From IMG/VR virus record IMGVR_UViG_3300035101_000015, positions 64,001 to 128,000 of that record: a stretch of 64,000 nt of DNA. One strand, 5' to 3'. The first letter of the stretch is position 1. Each line of letters starts with the position of its first letter. This stretch comes from a virus (taxonomy: Duplodnaviria; Caudoviricetes). The notes beneath the pieces were generated by a model. The model was given only the letters and a program-made list of their open reading frames with translations, was not told the origin of the DNA and ran no database searches. A program made the translations under genes and the position numbers. Shown here in pieces: positions 55,835 through 60,042 of this stretch.

Positions 55835-56335
55835 TCACTTCATTGAGCTAACCGCCCAGACGCTCAGTCCGAACACCGTGGCAGCACCGACCGCACCCAC
55901 GATAATACCGAAAGTCCTGGTGTTATACCAAGGCGGGCCCTTGCGGAGCTCACCCTCAAGCTCTGCGCTTTTCTTCTCCACGCGTTCTAGGCGTGTCTGC
56001 AGGTCAAGACGAATCTCCTTGTGGGCGCTCTCCTCGATTTCCAGCAGTCCCTGCCAGTAGTCTCGCTCATTACTCTGCAGACGGCGCGCCGACGTGTAGC
56101 AGAGGTCGAGCTGGAGCCTGTACTGCTCCATGTAGTTCGCCCAGCGCAGCGCAGTGGCAGGGTCGTAGAGCTGGCCGGAGAACGGAGCCTTCTCTCCTTT
56201 GGTGAGTACCACGATGTTGTCGTCACCAGATGGCACGGGCGTGAGCTCGAACCGTGGTACGGGAGGCAGCTCCGGTACCTGTGCGGACAGGAAGGCTGGG
56301 AAGAGGAAGATGAGCAGGAAGACGCGCCAGTTCAT
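55835..56335 (-). CDS. Secreted/membrane coiled-coil protein (spanin-like candidate)
   Basis: N-terminal signal peptide, coiled coil, C-terminal TM segment. Confidence 0.5.
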   Translation of the reverse strand: MNWRVFLLIFLFPAFLSAQVPELPPVPRFELTPVPSGDDNIVVLTKGEKAPFSGQLYDPATALRWANYMEQYRLQLDLCYTSARRLQSNERDYWQGLLEIEESAHKEIRLDLQTRLERVEKKSAELEGELRKGPPWYNTRTFGIIVGAVGAATVFGLSVWAVSSMK

Positions 56336-59300
56336 TGCTTGGCCTCCATCAGCTTGGCGAGCTCGAGCAGCATGGCCACTTTGATGTGCTGCTGTGGGTT
56401 CTTGCCCAGCATAGCCTTCATCATCTCGACCTTCATGGTCATCAGCCCACTAAAGAGCTTCTTGGGGATGTGAGCCCGGTAGGCAGCGATGGCCTCGTCC
56501 CTGTTGTCGAACCCTAGGAAGACCTTGTACTCGTCGAATGTCCCATCTGGCTTCCTCTGGATGGCCCAGAACGCATGCTCAGACTTCTTCTTGGGACCAA
56601 TGAAGACGTCCAGCCCATCATGGTCCCCACCCAGAGTACGGGGGATGTGCCCGTAGTCGTACCGGTAGCGCCGGCTCCAAGGCTTGCCCTTCTCGTCCCG
56701 GCCCATCATCACGAAGCCTCGGGGGCGGTCGACGCTGATGGGGATGCCCTGAAAGTCCAACTTGAACTTCGTGCTGTCGGTACTGGCCGGCTTGCCCTTG
56801 TACAGGCCCGTCGGGGCCGCTGCTGCCTTCTGCTGGACCGGCAGCGGGCGGCGGCGCGGGACAGCCGGCGCCGGGGGCGCGGCCTGCTGTGGGGCGGCCT
56901 GGGCCGCCTGCGGAGCTGCCTGTGCTGGCTGCTGGGCCGGAGCAGGCTGGCCAGCCAAGTGCTGACCCAGGGCGGTGCCGCCCGCTGCCGCCCCGCCGGC
57001 GGCGGCCCCGCCGGCGAGGGCCGCGCCACCGGAGAAGCCCTTGCCGAACTGCCCAGTGTAGAAGCGACGCAGCATGGGGCTCATGAGCGGCTGCTTGCCT
57101 GGGTCGAGCAGGCCGCTTCGGGCGCCCATCGGGTTCGACTCGATGATTTTGAAGCCCCCACCTTTGACCGGAGCAACGTCGAAGGCAAAGGAAGTCCTAC
57201 GGTGCTGCTCAGGCAGCTTGTCTACGATGTCCTGCACATACTTCGACGCCTCGCGCATCTTCTTGCGCCTGAGTAGCGACAGGGGATTGTAGCGAGGAGA
57301 TGCAAGCGACGGGTCCACCTGGCCGGCAAAGGAGTGGACACGAATCTCCTCCGAGGCTGGGTTGCCGACGAGCTTCGACGCCAGCCGACCGAGCACTCCG
57401 GGGCGCTCGAACTGGACCTTCTTCTGGCTCAGCGCAGCCTTCGGGTTGCGCATGATGTCCTCGAGCACGCGTCCAGCGTAGGCAGGGTCCTTCTTCGCAG
57501 CGGTGTAGAACTTGTCCCAGTCGGACGACTGAGCGAACTCCCCTCCTTGTGCGCGCAGCTTGGCACGCAGCTTCTTGGACTCGCCTTTGGAGTAGTCACG
57601 CCAGAGCCTAGCGAAGTCGTCCGACTCCATTGGGAATTTGCCACTGGCCTGAGCTCCGCCTACGTCCTTGAGGACGAATCCGCCTTTCCCGTACTGCTTC
57701 TGCAGCCGTTGCTGCAGCTTACCTACGAACTCCTCCTGCTGCTTCATTCCTCGAGGAGGCTTCTTCAACCCCATCTCCTTGAGGATGGACCTGACGTGGT
57801 CGCTCACACCTGCACTTTCAGGAAGGGCTCCAGGTGCATGGCGCTGAAAGTATTGATACTCCTTCAGCTTATTCTCACCGATGAGCTCATTGAGGCGAGA
57901 TGCTGCACGCGTGCTGTGTGGGTCCGGTGTCGTAGCGCTACGCACCCAGGCAGTCTCTGTCTCAGGGTCGAAGTGATGAACTGCAGCTCGCACCTTCTTC
58001 GGGCGCTTTGGCTGGGCACCACCGGTGTAGACCATCTCATCAGCACTGTGACGGATGCGGTCGATGAAGCGCCTCGCACGACCCTTTGGCGCCTTCTCAG
58101 ACACCGAGCGCACGAACTTCCCACCCGAGCCCTCTTGAATCTTCCGCAGGAAGGGGTCCGCACTGAAGCGCTTCTTGCGCATCGCCGCGTAGATGAGAGG
58201 AGCTGCAGCGGCTGCCGTACCCAGACCAGCAAGCAGCGGAGCCTTGCTCCTCCTACGCTTCTCTCCCTCCTCCTTGGCCACCTTCGCCATTGCGGTCTTC
58301 ACGTCCGGTGGGATGTCCTGGTCGAGGTGGAAGCTCTTGAAAGCTGGAGCTCTGGGGGCGTAGTGCATCGGTGCTCTCTGCATTGTAACCCGCGCCTGCA
58401 ATCCCTCATACTTCGAGGGGTTCTGGAGCATGTCCTTCTTCATTGCGTGGGACATACCAGTCCCTACGCGTCCAATCACCGGGCCACCCTTGGTGTAGGA
58501 GAACTCGAAACCCCCGGCCATCGTGCCTTGGCGCTTCGTGCCCCTCTCGGGGAAGACGGAGCGCACGAACACATCCTTCTCTGCCTTGAACTTCGCCTTG
58601 ACCGGTGTTGGCTTGTCCCGATGCCACTCGACCACACCCTCCTCAGTGGAGGGCTCGCGGCCTGCCTCGATGTCCGCAATCAGCTTCCGCTTCGCGGCGG
58701 GTGTACTAGCAGTCCTAGGCCGAGATAGCCACGGAGCTGCTCCCACTGCTTGCGCGAGAAGTTCTCGCTTCTGAGCGTATGGCAAACCCTCGACGTCCTT
58801 GCCTTTGAAGCGCGTGACGTCGAAGGCGACTGGGACGAGCCGCCCTTCTTGCTTCTGTTTCTCACGGCTCTTCCACACTCCTGCATTCAGAATACCGCCG
58901 ACTCGAGCAGCCGGCAGAGCCTTTCCCCTATCATCCACGGCATAGAGCTCTCCTCTCAGAATGGTGTCCTTGAGCCCAGACGGAGTCTTGCGCTTGTGGA
59001 AGCCTGGCAGCTTCTGCGTGTGGTCGATGACCCCAGAGGCTCTCTCCGTCGGGCGGTAGCTGAAGACGCGTGGAGTGGTTCCTGGAGACTTGAACTGGTA
59101 CAGAACGTGGGCACCATCAATCTTCGCCTGTAGCTCGGTGTTTGGGTCATCGGTGTTGAGCTGTCCAACGCCACGCTCCTTGTACTTCGGCTTGCTCGAG
59201 GGAAGTAGCTGACTGGGGCCTGCCTTTCTGGACGGTGTGACGTTCTGCACCATCCAGTCACCACCTTTGGTACGCCTCAGAGCGAACTCCTGGTTCTCCT

Positions 59301-60042
59301 TGCCCTTGTAGACGTTGAACCGGACATCCTTCTTGCTCGAGTGCAGGACCTCTGCCTTGTCCCTCTGCGCGAGCTCGACGTCGCCCTTGCCATAGCCCTT
59401 CTCGATGCGCCCCTTGAAGTCCATGTAGCCGATGGTGTGGGTCGGCTGCTGCACGGCCAAGGTGTGCTGGCCTGGCGGCGGGAGCCCTCCACGCATCGCC
59501 CAGGAGTGAGCTCGGCCGGTCCGGGGGTCCCCGAGCCTCAAGTCAAAGTGCTCCCCCGCCCGCTCGGCCTGGTGACGGTGCAGAGCCATCTCCCAGGTCC
59601 TGGGGGTAGTGAATTTGGGCAGCGCGCGGATGGCCCGGCTGGGAATACCGGGGGCGAACTCACTGGCCTTCTCGAGCTCCTTGGCGCCCACAGTGACGTG
59701 CAGAGGCGCCCGCCCGAGCCCGTGCTCCTTCCGCAGGGCCTGCACCTGCTCCCACTTCACCGGCATCAGCTTGTACTGCCGGCCCTTCTTGGGCTGTGGG
59801 GCGGAGATGACCCTAGGGTCGAGCTTCATGCCCTCAGCCGGCAGGTCCCCGAGCTGCTGGGCCAGGAGCTCCTTCTGCTTGACCCGCTTGAGCTCCTTCG
59901 GCCGGACCAGCGTCAGATGGTGACGTGGGCCGAACCTCTCCGCCCGGTACGCCTGCTCCGCCTCTGGGACTTTCCCGACAATCAGCTCCGGCGGCACGTC
60001 GGCGTACCGGAGGATTGAACTCTTGAGCTGGGTGTCCGGCAC
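56332..60042 (-). CDS. Polyvalent protein: 2H phosphoesterase, LigD 3'-phosphoesterase, ATP-dependent ligase, ATP-grasp, inorganic pyrophosphatase-like
   Basis: HLT/HVT; HQAERAGEHFDLRL..SWA..YGKG; KIDG, GELY, FDV, EGVV, VGTG; FVLK, EIRVH, FDV..IIESN; YGHIPRTLGGDHDGLDVF..DEYK. Confidence 0.8.
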   Translation of the reverse strand: MPDTQLKSSILRYADVPPELIVGKVPEAEQAYRAERFGPRHHLTLVRPKELKRVKQKELLAQQLGDLPAEGMKLDPRVISAPQPKKGRQYKLMPVKWEQVQALRKEHGLGRAPLHVTVGAKELEKASEFAPGIPSRAIRALPKFTTPRTWEMALHRHQAERAGEHFDLRLGDPRTGRAHSWAMRGGLPPPGQHTLAVQQPTHTIGYMDFKGRIEKGYGKGDVELAQRDKAEVLHSSKKDVRFNVYKGKENQEFALRRTKGGDWMVQNVTPSRKAGPSQLLPSSKPKYKERGVGQLNTDDPNTELQAKIDGAHVLYQFKSPGTTPRVFSYRPTERASGVIDHTQKLPGFHKRKTPSGLKDTILRGELYAVDDRGKALPAARVGGILNAGVWKSREKQKQEGRLVPVAFDVTRFKGKDVEGLPYAQKRELLAQAVGAAPWLSRPRTASTPAAKRKLIADIEAGREPSTEEGVVEWHRDKPTPVKAKFKAEKDVFVRSVFPERGTKRQGTMAGGFEFSYTKGGPVIGRVGTGMSHAMKKDMLQNPSKYEGLQARVTMQRAPMHYAPRAPAFKSFHLDQDIPPDVKTAMAKVAKEEGEKRRRSKAPLLAGLGTAAAAAPLIYAAMRKKRFSADPFLRKIQEGSGGKFVRSVSEKAPKGRARRFIDRIRHSADEMVYTGGAQPKRPKKVRAAVHHFDPETETAWVRSATTPDPHSTRAASRLNELIGENKLKEYQYFQRHAPGALPESAGVSDHVRSILKEMGLKKPPRGMKQQEEFVGKLQQRLQKQYGKGGFVLKDVGGAQASGKFPMESDDFARLWRDYSKGESKKLRAKLRAQGGEFAQSSDWDKFYTAAKKDPAYAGRVLEDIMRNPKAALSQKKVQFERPGVLGRLASKLVGNPASEEIRVHSFAGQVDPSLASPRYNPLSLLRRKKMREASKYVQDIVDKLPEQHRRTSFAFDVAPVKGGGFKIIESNPMGARSGLLDPGKQPLMSPMLRRFYTGQFGKGFSGGAALAGGAAAGGAAAGGTALGQHLAGQPAPAQQPAQAAPQAAQAAPQQAAPPAPAVPRRRPLPVQQKAAAAPTGLYKGKPASTDSTKFKLDFQGIPISVDRPRGFVMMGRDEKGKPWSRRYRYDYGHIPRTLGGDHDGLDVFIGPKKKSEHAFWAIQRKPDGTFDEYKVFLGFDNRDEAIAAYRAHIPKKLFSGLMTMKVEMMKAMLGKNPQQHIKVAMLLELAKLMEAKQ

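What the first reader, a model, noticed from the sequence alone, without database searches (positions are those of the whole stretch)
56332..60042. Five-enzyme polyprotein for end healing and sealing, with K-x-A motifs at domain junctions
Seen: 2H phosphoesterase (HLT ~59915, HVT ~59695), LigD-type 3'-phosphoesterase (~59540), ATP-dependent ligase with OB domain (KIDG ~59120), ATP-grasp (~57140-57680) flanked by Gly/Ala hydrophobic segments, and a PPase-like domain (~56610). ELEKAS, VKTAMAKVAK and QQKAAA fall at module boundaries, and IKVAM near the C-terminus. Known: these chemistries remove 2',3'-cyclic or 3' phosphates, ligate nicks and hydrolyse the PPi by-product. Inference: a virion-packaged, protease-processed repair kit injected with the genome; the 2H domain could alternatively degrade cyclic-nucleotide signals or heal cleaved tRNA.
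Basis: partly seen in the sequence, partly recalled or inferred. Interest (0 to 1): 0.8.

Follow-up and report, generated by a model that had tools for sequence, protein, structure and literature searches.

The report
Phage multi-enzyme cargo polyprotein
A large uncultured phage encodes one 1236-residue chain joining five enzymes, three of which clean and seal broken DNA/RNA ends, separated by short Lys-x-Ala/Ser marks that look like protease cut sites; it is a new variant of the known 'polyvalent' phage proteins thought to enter the host with the DNA.

Summary
Window 56332-60042 (-) is one 1236-aa ORF with five modules: 2H phosphoesterase, LigD-type 3'-phosphoesterase, ATP-dependent ligase with OB domain, an ATP-grasp flanked by hydrophobic segments, and an InPase-type pyrophosphatase. 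All are recovered by profile or fold searches.

It is a 'polyvalent protein' in the sense of Iyer et al. 2017. Relatives at the same locus keep the phosphoesterase-ligase core and usually InPase, but swap the other cargo (SNF2, GNAT, SET, amidase).

Not all five enzymes form a repair kit. The ATP-grasp belongs to the peptide-ligase (R2K) clade. InPase is a generic head-associated module.

K-x-[AS] is not enriched overall, but its placement is far from random:
- 2 sites inside 1043 folded residues, against 13.7 expected;
- 7 sites in 193 junction residues;
- conserved at the same boundaries in relatives whose neighbouring modules differ.

This fits cutting by a head protease. The candidate is the 578-aa ORF at 26-1762, a weak T4 gp21-like match. 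No cut or packaging has been measured.

The scan had already noted K-x-A marks elsewhere in this genome.

What is new here: a LigD-type ligase core in a polyvalent protein, with marks for an external protease where such proteins usually carry their own peptidase.

The parts
56332..60042 (-). Whole ORF, 1236 aa, GTG start, basic (K 9.5%, R 8.2%, pI 10.2)
59674..59991 (-). 2H phosphoesterase module (res ~18-123), two H-x-T motifs
   Evidence: Pfam 2H-SAK E 2.5e-10. Homologous 2H at the C-terminus of P0021.
59662..59670 (-). Junction mark 1: K125-A-S127 (in ELEKAS). Most relatives begin 1-3 residues after this point with EFAPGIP.
59248..59589 (-). LigD-type 3'-phosphoesterase (res ~152-265)
   Evidence: Pfam LigD_N; PDB 3p4h/3p43/3n9b alignments with the His/Asp/Arg/Tyr blocks kept
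58300..59145 (-). ATP-dependent ligase nucleotidyltransferase + OB domain (res ~300-581). Motif I is K-x-D-G-x-H, invariant in the family.
58276..58299 (-). Junction mark 2: K582-T-A, then K587-V-A. The conserved core ends here in 18 of 20 relatives, and the downstream sequence is unrelated.
58180..58242 (-). Hydrophobic, TM-like segment (res 601-621), part of the ATP-grasp cassette as in stand-alone relatives
57043..58110 (-). ATP-grasp module (res 645-1000), R2K-clade amide-ligase type. Invariant K, E-x-R-x-H and D...E-x-N.
56830..57042 (-). Gly/Ala-rich hydrophobic segment followed by a Pro/Gln/Ala low-complexity linker (res 1001-1071)
56785..56829 (-). Junction mark 3: K1072-A-A and K1084-P-A, just upstream of the InPase module
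56410..56769 (-). InPase-type inorganic pyrophosphatase module (res 1092-1211). YGxIPxT and D-x-D-x-x-D signature present.
   Evidence: Pfam PF18823 E 1.3e-27; PDB 9b41 portal gp19; conservation
56374..56382 (-). Junction mark 4: K1221-V-A after the InPase module; conserved in 11 of 11 relatives
56335..56373 (-). 13-residue amphipathic C-terminal tail. Relatives have a similar G-F-x-D-E-L-x-K-[IL]-[AS] peptide.
26..1762 (-). Candidate head-maturation protease fused to a scaffold-like tail (578 aa). Two invariant E-K-T-A-S motifs bracket its N-terminal domain.

Best explanation
This is a phage 'polyvalent' cargo protein: several unrelated enzymes made as one chain from a fixed slot in the late, virion-gene block of an uncultured ~187-kb phage distantly related to Salmonella phage Arash.

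The slot always carries a LigD-derived 3'-phosphoesterase + ATP-dependent ligase and usually an InPase pyrophosphatase. The other modules are exchangeable. Here they are a 2H phosphoesterase and a membrane-segment-flanked ATP-grasp peptide ligase.

Proposed mechanism:
1. (inferred) The chain is taken into the prohead.
2. (inferred) The phage's head-maturation protease cuts it at the K-x-[Ala/Ser] marks between modules.
3. (inferred) The separate basic enzymes leave the head with the DNA.
4. (from family knowledge) In the cell, the phosphoesterase removes 3'-phosphate or 3'-ribonucleotide blocks and the ligase seals nicks or breaks, most likely in the incoming phage DNA after host nuclease attack.
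5. (from family knowledge) The 2H module either opens 2',3'-cyclic phosphate ends for that pathway or destroys cyclic or 2'-5' nucleotide signals.
6. (predicted, PMC4431377) The ATP-grasp adds an amino acid or peptide to a target protein.
7. (from family knowledge) InPase hydrolyses pyrophosphate or a related nucleotide.

Shown here: domain identities, intact catalytic motifs, module shuffling, and placement and conservation of the marks.
For: Domains.

Polyvalent character:
- 24 relatives share the PE-ligase core (41-76% identity) with different cargo: SNF2, GNAT, SET, C92 amidase, kinase-like. 12 of them end in InPase.
- P0004 is a positional ortholog with the same eight upstream neighbours.
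- 2H, InPase, SNF2 and GNAT are listed as polyvalent-protein domains in PMC5512222.

Head association:
- InPase is fused to a solved portal (9b41) and to 'minor head' PHROGs.
- It is inserted in this clade's protease candidate (P0277).
- The gene lies in a 32-kb same-strand block with PKD and beta-propeller giants, and tail-fibre genes lie downstream in L004.
- The protein is Lys-rich and basic, like other head-cluster proteins of this genome.

Cut marks:
- K-x-[AS] occurs twice in 1043 folded residues against 13.7+-3.3 expected (0 of 5000 shuffles). Six control tripeptides show no comparable depletion in the domains.
- It is the only significantly depleted ORF in the contig.
- The SNF2 cargo of relatives has 5 against 30.1 expected, P 2e-8.
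- Marks are present at 18/20, 10/11 and 11/11 aligned boundaries, against a 12-16% background.
- Relatives and stand-alone ATP-grasp proteins start with 10-25-residue leaders ending in K-x-[AS].

Protease candidate: T4 gp21 is rank 1 of 48,161 chains (Z 3.7, 137 of 165 residues) and rank 3 in Foldseek. The candidate's own domain is bracketed by invariant EKTAS.
Against: - No proteomic or biochemical data exist for this phage. Packaging and cleavage are inferred.
- The neighbours have no recognisable virion families, and the Atlas leads are weak.
- The protease assignment rests on a mediocre model (pLDDT 62) and on scores below the tool's caution level. Pfam S77, S78, ClpP and S49 models find nothing.
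- Known T4-type proteases cut after Glu and mostly remove N-terminal propeptides (PMC10052503).
- The relatives used for the boundary counts are related to one another, so the counts are not independent events.
- The target carries the only ligase detectable in the contig, which would also fit a replication role.
- No Ku partner and no 5'-kinase were found.
Confidence: 0.55

Rival explanations
1. The chain is not cut. It acts as one multi-domain protein held at the membrane by its two hydrophobic segments. The K-x-[AS] marks are something other than protease sites: for example a head-targeting or docking tag, a site for another modification on Lys, or flexible-linker signatures kept because cassettes recombine there.
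For: - Some polyvalent proteins, such as the N4 virion RNAP, are packaged unprocessed (PMC5512222).
- The marks differ from every published T4-type cleavage rule.
- The hydrophobic flanks belong to the ATP-grasp cassette even in stand-alone proteins.
Against: - A tag or linker signature does not explain why the tripeptide is purged about 7-fold from folded modules, including unrelated SNF2 cargo.
- N-terminal 10-25-residue leaders ending in the mark resemble removable propeptides.
- The x position varies, so the conservation is at protein level, not DNA level.
Confidence: 0.2
2. It is an ordinary intracellular phage enzyme, not virion cargo: the phage's own DNA ligase for replication and repair, which happens to be fused to accessory domains.
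For: - It carries the only ATP- or NAD-dependent ligase domain found in the 146-kb contig.
- The LigD-type PE + ligase is a bona fide DNA-repair pair.
Against: - The contig is only about 78% complete, so another ligase may exist.
- The gene lies outside the replication block (window 33.8-48 kb, + strand) and inside a long structural-type operon with conserved synteny.
- It carries InPase, a module otherwise fused to portal and head proteins.
- Its architecture is hypervariable, unlike a housekeeping ligase.
Confidence: 0.15
3. The modules are independent anti-defence effectors and not a repair pathway. In particular, the 2H domain degrades cyclic or 2'-5'-linked nucleotide immune signals, or acts as an RNase, and has no functional link with the ligase.
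For: - PMC5512222 argues this for polyvalent-protein 2H domains, because they were never seen with ligases.
- Here 2H accompanies the ligase core in only 2 of about 25 relatives, and at opposite ends of the chain.
Against: - The two independent fusions of 2H to a PE-ligase core are themselves the association that paper said was missing.
- A kinase-like P-loop is fused to the same core in P0024, which fits an end-healing theme.
- This rival concerns only the 2H module and is compatible with the rest of the best explanation.
Confidence: 0.4

Closest known systems
Phage-type polyvalent proteins (Iyer, Burroughs, Anand, de Souza, Aravind 2017, PMC5512222)
   Same: - One long chain of unrelated enzymatic domains, encoded by a phage.
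- Contains InPase and 2H, both listed as phage-specific polyvalent domains; relatives carry SNF2, GNAT and a papain-like amidase.
- Rampant domain shuffling between relatives.
- Predicted delivery with the DNA.
   Different: - The constant core is a LigD-type 3'-phosphoesterase + ATP-dependent DNA ligase, which that paper does not mention ('DNA ligase' and 'LigD' occur 0 times).
- 2H is fused to a ligase, which the paper says was never observed.
- There is no embedded zincin (HExxH) peptidase. Short K-x-[AS] marks for an external protease stand in its place.
- There is no MuF or portal domain in the chain.
Bacterial DNA ligase D (LigD) of non-homologous end joining
   Same: PE domain followed by a ligase nucleotidyltransferase + OB domain, in the order seen in the NCBIfam LigD model PRK09632. 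The PE metal and catalytic blocks are kept.
   Different: - No polymerase/primase domain.
- No Ku in the contig.
- Motif I has an invariant His where I recall canonical ligases have Arg (the Arg is from memory).
- Scores are far below the LigD equivalog cut-offs (65 against 989 bits).
- Embedded in a phage cargo chain.
T4 prohead protease gp21 with its packaged substrates (IPI-III, Alt), and SPN3US gp245 with its ejection proteins (PMC10052503)
   Same: - Head proteins with short N-terminal leaders, and internal enzymes that are processed in the prohead and ejected.
- A three-residue P3-x-P1 style motif.
- The protease candidate has its best structural match to gp21.
   Different: - The motif is K-x-[AS], not (L/I/A)-x-E.
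- The marks lie between enzyme modules of a polyprotein, not only after an N-terminal propeptide.
- The cut itself is unproven.
R2K clade of ATP-grasp enzymes (Cdc123, R2K.2, R2K.3; Burroughs et al. 2015, PMC4431377)
   Same: ATP-grasp fold with Cdc123, RimK and LysX among the structural matches. Family members hit Pfam R2K_3 and R2K_2. R2K.3 proteins are noted as often annotated 'membrane protein', which fits the hydrophobic flanks here.
   Different: - It has the standard E-x-N, not the E-x-G-D that the paper gives as typical of R2K.3.
- It has an N-terminal leader ending in K-x-[AS].
- Here it is embedded in a polyvalent chain.

Membership tests
Polyvalent proteins (PMC5512222) | Two or more functionally disparate globular domains in one polypeptide of a phage or conjugative element | tested here: met
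   Five modules from different superfamilies in one ORF of an IMG/VR viral contig
Polyvalent proteins (PMC5512222) | Domains drawn from the shared polyvalent repertoire, with shuffled architectures among relatives | tested here: met
   InPase and 2H here; SNF2, GNAT, SET and C92 amidase in relatives that share the same core
Polyvalent proteins (PMC5512222) | Embedded processing peptidase (zincin-like MPTase in ~36% of members). Frequent but not obligatory. | tested here: not met
   No peptidase Pfam hit and no HExxH or HExxxH. Only a weak Zn_peptidase_2 hint in relative P0005.
Polyvalent proteins (PMC5512222) | Virion-gene neighbourhood, and packaging and delivery with the DNA | tested here: inconclusive
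   The late same-strand block has conserved synteny, and the InPase module is portal- and head-associated elsewhere. The neighbours are unannotatable. Delivery cannot be tested with these tools.
DNA ligase D (LigD) | 3'-phosphoesterase domain with His/Asp metal site and Arg/Tyr catalytic residues | tested here: met
   Alignment to 3p4h, 3p43 and 3n9b keeps H..H-x-D-x-R and H-x-x-x-Y. These are invariant in the family.
DNA ligase D (LigD) | ATP-dependent ligase domain with motifs I, III, IV and V, plus an OB domain | tested here: met
   K-x-D-G, G-E-L, F-D and E-G..K-x-K-F are conserved. PHROG 114 and NCBIfam models run to res 541-590.
DNA ligase D (LigD) | Polymerase/primase (POL) domain and a Ku partner | tested here: not met
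   No POL-type hit in the chain. No Ku in the contig, which is about 78% complete.
2H phosphoesterase superfamily | Two H-x-T/S motifs in a duplicated fold | tested here: met
   HLT and HVT. Pfam 2H-SAK 41 bits against a 27-bit cut-off. The fold itself was not modelled.
ATP-grasp, R2K clade | ATP-grasp fold with an ATP-binding Lys and a Mg-binding acidic/E-x-N triad | tested here: met
   AF2 pLDDT 92.8. Foldseek hits to LysX/ArgX, Ddl, RimK, Cdc123 and TTL, 73 hits at E<=1e-3. Invariant K148, D311, E324, N326.
ATP-grasp, R2K clade | R2K.3-specific E-x-G-D motif in place of E-x-N | tested here: not met
   The family consensus is I-E-x-N-P-G-G, yet 31 of 50 members hit the Pfam R2K_3 model. It is therefore a related but distinct subfamily.
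InPase (PF18823), type I pyrophosphatase clade of polyvalent proteins | Profile match above cut-off, with the acidic metal-binding signature | tested here: met
   96.8 bits against a 26.8-bit cut-off. D1140 and D1145 are invariant, and the YG and D-E-x-K blocks are conserved.
Substrates of T4-type prohead proteases | Cleavage after (L/I/A/S/G)-x-Glu | tested here: not met
   The boundary marks are K-x-[AS], and Glu is not consistently present next to them. The published rule is taken from PMC10052503.

The most novel reading that the evidence does not exclude
A phage uses a true polyprotein strategy. A T4-fold head protease with an unreported Lys-x-Ala/Ser specificity dissects multi-enzyme precursors inside the prohead into separate injected effectors. 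The constant effector of this hypervariable slot is a LigD-derived end-cleaning ligase that reseals the incoming genome after host nuclease attack, that is, counter-defence by religation.
Probability: 0.3. Interest if true: 0.85.

Novelty: new variant of a known kind. Interest (0 to 1): 0.62.

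Why it matters
If the marks are cut sites, a simple sequence rule (K-x-[AS], purged from folded modules) would let one read the packaged proteome and the mature protein ends of a whole lineage of uncultured ~180-200-kb phages straight from sequence. It would also extend the known specificity of T4/herpesvirus-fold maturation proteases.

The fixed slot with exchangeable cargo is a natural catalogue of early-acting phage effectors. A virion-borne LigD-type phosphoesterase-ligase would be a new kind of counter-defence, repairing the incoming genome instead of hiding it. 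It would also be a compact end-cleaning ligase of possible use as a reagent.

The finding fills a gap stated in the polyvalent-protein paper, which never saw 2H domains associated with ligases.

Tried and rejected
- PHROG and Pfam scans of 30 neighbouring or head-cluster ORFs gave almost nothing: a weak PKD match, a GT2 match and one baseplate hint. The virion context could not be proved by annotation.
- Pfam models for the four common head-protease families (S77, S78, ClpP, S49) found nothing in the contig. The S77 search had no positive control, so it shows nothing.
- A profile of the 578-aa family against PDB sequences gave no hit.
- The 2H module had no PDB sequence match at E<=10, and no short relatives by word search.
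- tblastn of the PE-ligase core against 50,697 deposited phage genomes gave no match.
- ESM Atlas on two neighbours gave a beta-propeller lead (TM ~0.52-0.55) and nothing for the 798-aa protein.
- I first suspected that the 578-aa ORF was the portal, because of its inteins and the InPase fusion. Its best structural match is T4 gp21 and not a portal, so I kept the protease reading, with low confidence.
- The idea that K-x-A is enriched in the protein is rejected. It is depleted overall.
- The idea that the marks are part of the InPase fold is rejected. Two unrelated cultured phages lack them.

Full report
**1. What is there**

Window 56332-60042 on the minus strand is a single open frame of 1236 codons with a GTG start. 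The start lies 38 nt after the stop of the preceding same-strand gene. The window is part of a 145,842-bp IMG/VR viral contig that CheckV rates about 78% complete. The contig encodes:
- a large terminase, DnaB, a family A DNA polymerase and a UvsX-like recombinase;
- a 2153-aa fused beta/beta'-like RNA polymerase.

The target lies in a 32-kb run of minus-strand genes (contig 113.8-145.8 kb) that includes giants of 1366, 1187, 1391, 798, 677 and 604 aa.

**2. The five modules are real**

- **2H.** Pfam gives 2H-SAK at res 23-121 (E 2.5e-10). Both H-x-T motifs of 2H enzymes are present.
- **Phosphoesterase (PE).** Pfam gives LigD_N at res 155-234 (E 3e-10). The domain aligns to the solved PE structures 3p4h, 3p43 and 3n9b and keeps the H..H-x-D-x-R and H-x-x-x-Y blocks. 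Those blocks are invariant in the family.
- **Ligase.** Pfam gives DNA_ligase_A_M at res 304-433 (23-27 bits). NCBIfam LigD models span res 155-541 (E 5e-18) and PHROG 114 'ATP-dependent DNA ligase' spans res 305-590. So the ligase has both the nucleotidyltransferase and the OB domain. Motifs I (K-x-D-G-x-H), III, IV and V are conserved in 25 relatives.
- **InPase.** Pfam gives InPase at res 1092-1211 (E 1.3e-27).
- **ATP-grasp.** The middle part had no hit of its own.
  - An exhaustive HMMER search with res 645-1000 found 243 clusters, mostly stand-alone proteins of 400-500 aa.
  - Of 50 aligned members, 31 match Pfam R2K_3 and 14 match R2K_2.
  - The invariant columns are the ATP-grasp pattern of a Lys, E-x-R-x-H and D...E-x-N.
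  - An AlphaFold model (pLDDT 92.8, pTM 0.90) matches LysX/ArgX, D-Ala-D-Ala ligases, RimK, Cdc123 and tubulin tyrosine ligase, with 73 hits at E<=1e-3.

However, it is the amide-forming amino-acid/peptide-ligase kind, not a nucleic-acid enzyme. Burroughs et al. (PMC4431377) predict that R2K enzymes add peptide tags to proteins in phage-host conflicts.

**3. What kind of protein this is**

Thirty relatives of comparable length were found.
- Twenty-four share the PE-ligase core at 41-76% identity.
- Most begin exactly where query residue 125-128 aligns.
- Homology stops at query residue ~584-592. In 12 of them it resumes at ~1057-1095 with InPase.

Between and after these blocks the relatives carry other modules: SNF2 helicase, one or two GNATs, SET, a C92 papain-like amidase and a kinase-like P-loop. 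P0021 has the 2H module at the C-terminus.

P0004 lies on a 186.7-kb contig with the same order of eight upstream genes as here. There the order is PKD giant, 237, 218, 708, 478, 129, 130, 181 aa. Here it is 1391, 234, 202, 677, 506, 129, 129, 179 aa. P0004 is therefore a positional ortholog with different cargo.

This is the behaviour described for 'polyvalent proteins' by Iyer et al. 2017 (PMC5512222). That paper lists 2H and InPase among the domains found only in phage-type members. It also argues that InPase-bearing proteins are packaged, citing fusions to portal proteins.
- A solved portal (9b41, gp19) carries this InPase module at res 636-728.
- PHROGs with the module are annotated minor head or virion structural protein.

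That paper never mentions DNA ligase or LigD. It states that its 2H domains were never seen associated with RNA ligases. The PE-ligase core is also absent from 50,697 deposited phage genomes. The architecture is therefore a new variant within a known class.

**4. The junction marks**

K-x-A is not enriched: there are 6 sites against 13+-3 expected. ELEKAS is K-A-S, so the motif must be widened to K-x-[AS]. That gives nine sites, at residues 7, 125, 582, 587, 868, 1072, 1084, 1152 and 1221.

| Test | Observed | Expected or background |
|---|---|---|
| K-x-[AS] in the four folded modules (1043 res) | 2 | 13.7+-3.3 (0 of 5000 segment-wise shuffles as low) |
| K-x-[AS] in junctions (193 res) | 7 | 4.6+-1.8 |
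| Whole ORF | 9 | 19 (Poisson P 0.009) |
| Replication block of the contig | 31 | 30 (ratio 1.03) |
| SNF2 halves of four relatives | 5 | 30.1 (P 2e-8); control R-x-[AS] 18 against 26.6 |
| Cores of stand-alone ATP-grasp relatives | 156 | 321 |
| Mark within 15 residues after the ligase anchor | 18 of 20 | 12-16% per window |
| Mark within 16 residues before the InPase anchor | 10 of 11 | 12-16% per window |
| Mark within 20 residues after InPase | 11 of 11 | 12-16% per window |

- Six control tripeptides (R.[AS], K.[GT], E.[AS], K.[LV], [AS].K, K[AS].) show no comparable depletion inside the domains.
- The target is the only significantly depleted ORF among the 98 ORFs of at least 150 aa in the contig.
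- The boundary marks are kept although the adjoining modules differ.
- Several relatives, and many stand-alone ATP-grasp proteins, start with a 10-25-residue leader that ends in K-x-[AS].
- InPase domains at the ends of portal or minor-head proteins of Pseudomonas phage tabernarius and Xylella phage MATE2 lack such flanks. The 308-kb phage Tunturi_5 gp272 has them. The marks therefore belong to a phage lineage, not to the InPase fold.

Caveats:
- The relatives are related to one another, so the boundary counts are not independent.
- I chose the module limits from Pfam envelopes and BLAST breakpoints. The whole-protein depletion does not depend on those limits.

The combined pattern is what one expects of a site that a protease recognises. 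The tripeptide is avoided where cutting would destroy an enzyme, and it is kept where modules must be separated.

**5. Which protease**

No Pfam head-protease family hits the contig. The 578-aa ORF at window 26-1762 stands between the terminase-proximal genes and an acidic 319-aa ORF and a 469-aa ORF.
- It has more than 1500 relatives at 55-88% identity, some with inteins.
- Its family consensus has two invariant E-K-T-A-S motifs (res ~29-33 and ~317-321), which bracket an N-terminal domain rich in invariant His, Ser and Asp.
- One relative, P0277, has an InPase module inserted right after that domain, again flanked by K-x-[AS].
- The AlphaFold model is mediocre (pLDDT 62).
- T4 gp21 (5jbl) is the top match of 48,161 chains with VIA-align (Z 3.7, rmsd 4.8, 137 of 165 residues). 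It is rank 3 of 350,542 chains in Foldseek (E 1.1).

The scores are weak, so this is a consistent lead and not a demonstration.

Distant cultured relatives of this ORF are in Vibrio phages D69, D181 and D148 and in Salmonella phage Arash, where it is annotated 'structural protein'. The Arash virion proteome lists the RNA polymerase subunits, two RNA ligases and a DNA ligase. The authors caution that abundant enzymes might be carried over (PMC10585845).

Published T4-type proteases cut after Glu. The rule is A-x-E in SPN3US, and nearly all cuts there remove N-terminal propeptides (PMC10052503). From my own knowledge, the rule is L/I-x-E in T4. A K-x-[AS] rule that separates enzyme modules would be new in both respects.

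Earlier follow-ups of this scan reached the same K-x-A reading on other proteins of this genome (e1-5761969, e1-5761970). I treated those as leads. What this report adds is the depletion statistics and the boundary conservation in this protein.

**6. Function**

The constant PE-ligase pair is derived from LigD. It lacks the polymerase domain, and the contig has no Ku.

By family knowledge, PE removes 3'-phosphates and 3'-ribonucleotides, and the ligase seals 3'-OH/5'-phosphate nicks. As early-acting cargo it would most plausibly repair the incoming genome after host nucleases have nicked or cut it. Sealing natural nicks or ends of the packaged DNA is another possibility. This step is inferred.

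The 2H module could feed 2',3'-cyclic phosphate ends into that pathway. But it is present in only 2 of about 25 relatives. An independent role against cyclic or 2'-5' nucleotide signals, as proposed in PMC5512222, is at least as likely.

InPase also occurs in relatives without a ligase (P0026-P0028) and inside the protease candidate. It is therefore a generic head-associated module and not the ligase's dedicated pyrophosphate remover. Its acidic signature is conserved, so it is probably active.

The ATP-grasp cassette comes with its own hydrophobic flanks, a TM-like 'LAGLG..PLIY' segment and a Gly/Ala segment, in stand-alone proteins too. That suggests it acts at a membrane. Its substrate is unknown.

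**7. Verdict**

- The protein is a new variant of the polyvalent-protein class. It has a LigD-type core, no internal peptidase, and lineage-specific K-x-[AS] marks.
- The main rival readings are an uncut membrane-anchored protein, a plain replication ligase, and a set of independent effectors.

Noticed in passing
window 26-1762 (-): A 578-aa head-cluster ORF, very strongly conserved (>1500 relatives, several with inteins), with two invariant E-K-T-A-S motifs bracketing an N-terminal domain. Its best structural match is the T4 prohead protease gp21 (weak). The C-terminal half is helical and scaffold-like. One relative (P0277) has an InPase module inserted between the two halves.
   Followed up: partly
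window 57043-58242 (-) and proteins P0032-P0059: A widespread family (243 clusters) of stand-alone ATP-grasp proteins with a fixed layout: short leader ending in K-x-[AS], TM-like 'LAGLGAA..PLLY' segment, R2K-type ATP-grasp with E-x-N, Gly/Ala hydrophobic segment, Pro-rich tail. Some are fused to SNF2 (P0037) or InPase (P0048, P0056).
   Followed up: partly
L003 (JGI 3300028920, Ga0272441_10000095) 1-23903: A 186.7-kb relative keeps the same eight upstream genes but carries LigD_N-ligase-InPase-SNF2 in the slot. The slot is a cargo-exchange hot spot in an otherwise syntenic block.
   Followed up: partly
window 60081-60620 (-) versus 60174-60719 (+): Two overlapping ORFs of ~180 aa on opposite strands just upstream of the target. 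Synteny with L003, which has a 181-aa gene on the target's strand, favours the minus-strand one.
   Followed up: partly
L001 8423-9277 (-) = contig 134423-135277: A family 2 glycosyltransferase (E 4e-10) sits inside the block of giant structural-type genes, next to a 1391-aa protein with a PKD-like domain.
   Followed up: no
window 61402-62922 (-): The 506-aa neighbour resembles BNR/Sortilin-type beta-propellers in the ESM Atlas (TM 0.52-0.55, feature score 0.88). It may be an adhesin or receptor-binding protein.
   Followed up: no
L007 2468-3805 (Tunturiibacter phage Tunturi_5 gp272): This cultured 308-kb phage has an InPase 'minor head protein' with a 9-residue leader ending in R-K-V-A, and E-L-E-K-T-A after the domain. 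That is the same style of marks as here, so it may be an experimental handle for the cleavage rule.
   Followed up: partly
protein P0023 (1525 aa): In this relative the PE-ligase core is C-terminal, and the protein ends with ...I-D-P-V-A-K, at the position of the Lys of the conserved K-T-A mark.
   Followed up: no
whole contig: Lys content is bimodal. The median is 4.2%, but about 25 ORFs have 6.5-14% Lys, among them the fused RNA polymerase, the head-cluster proteins and the target. Several head-cluster ORFs are enriched, not depleted, in K-x-[AS] (for example contig 72061-74256: 14 against 4.9 expected).
   Followed up: partly
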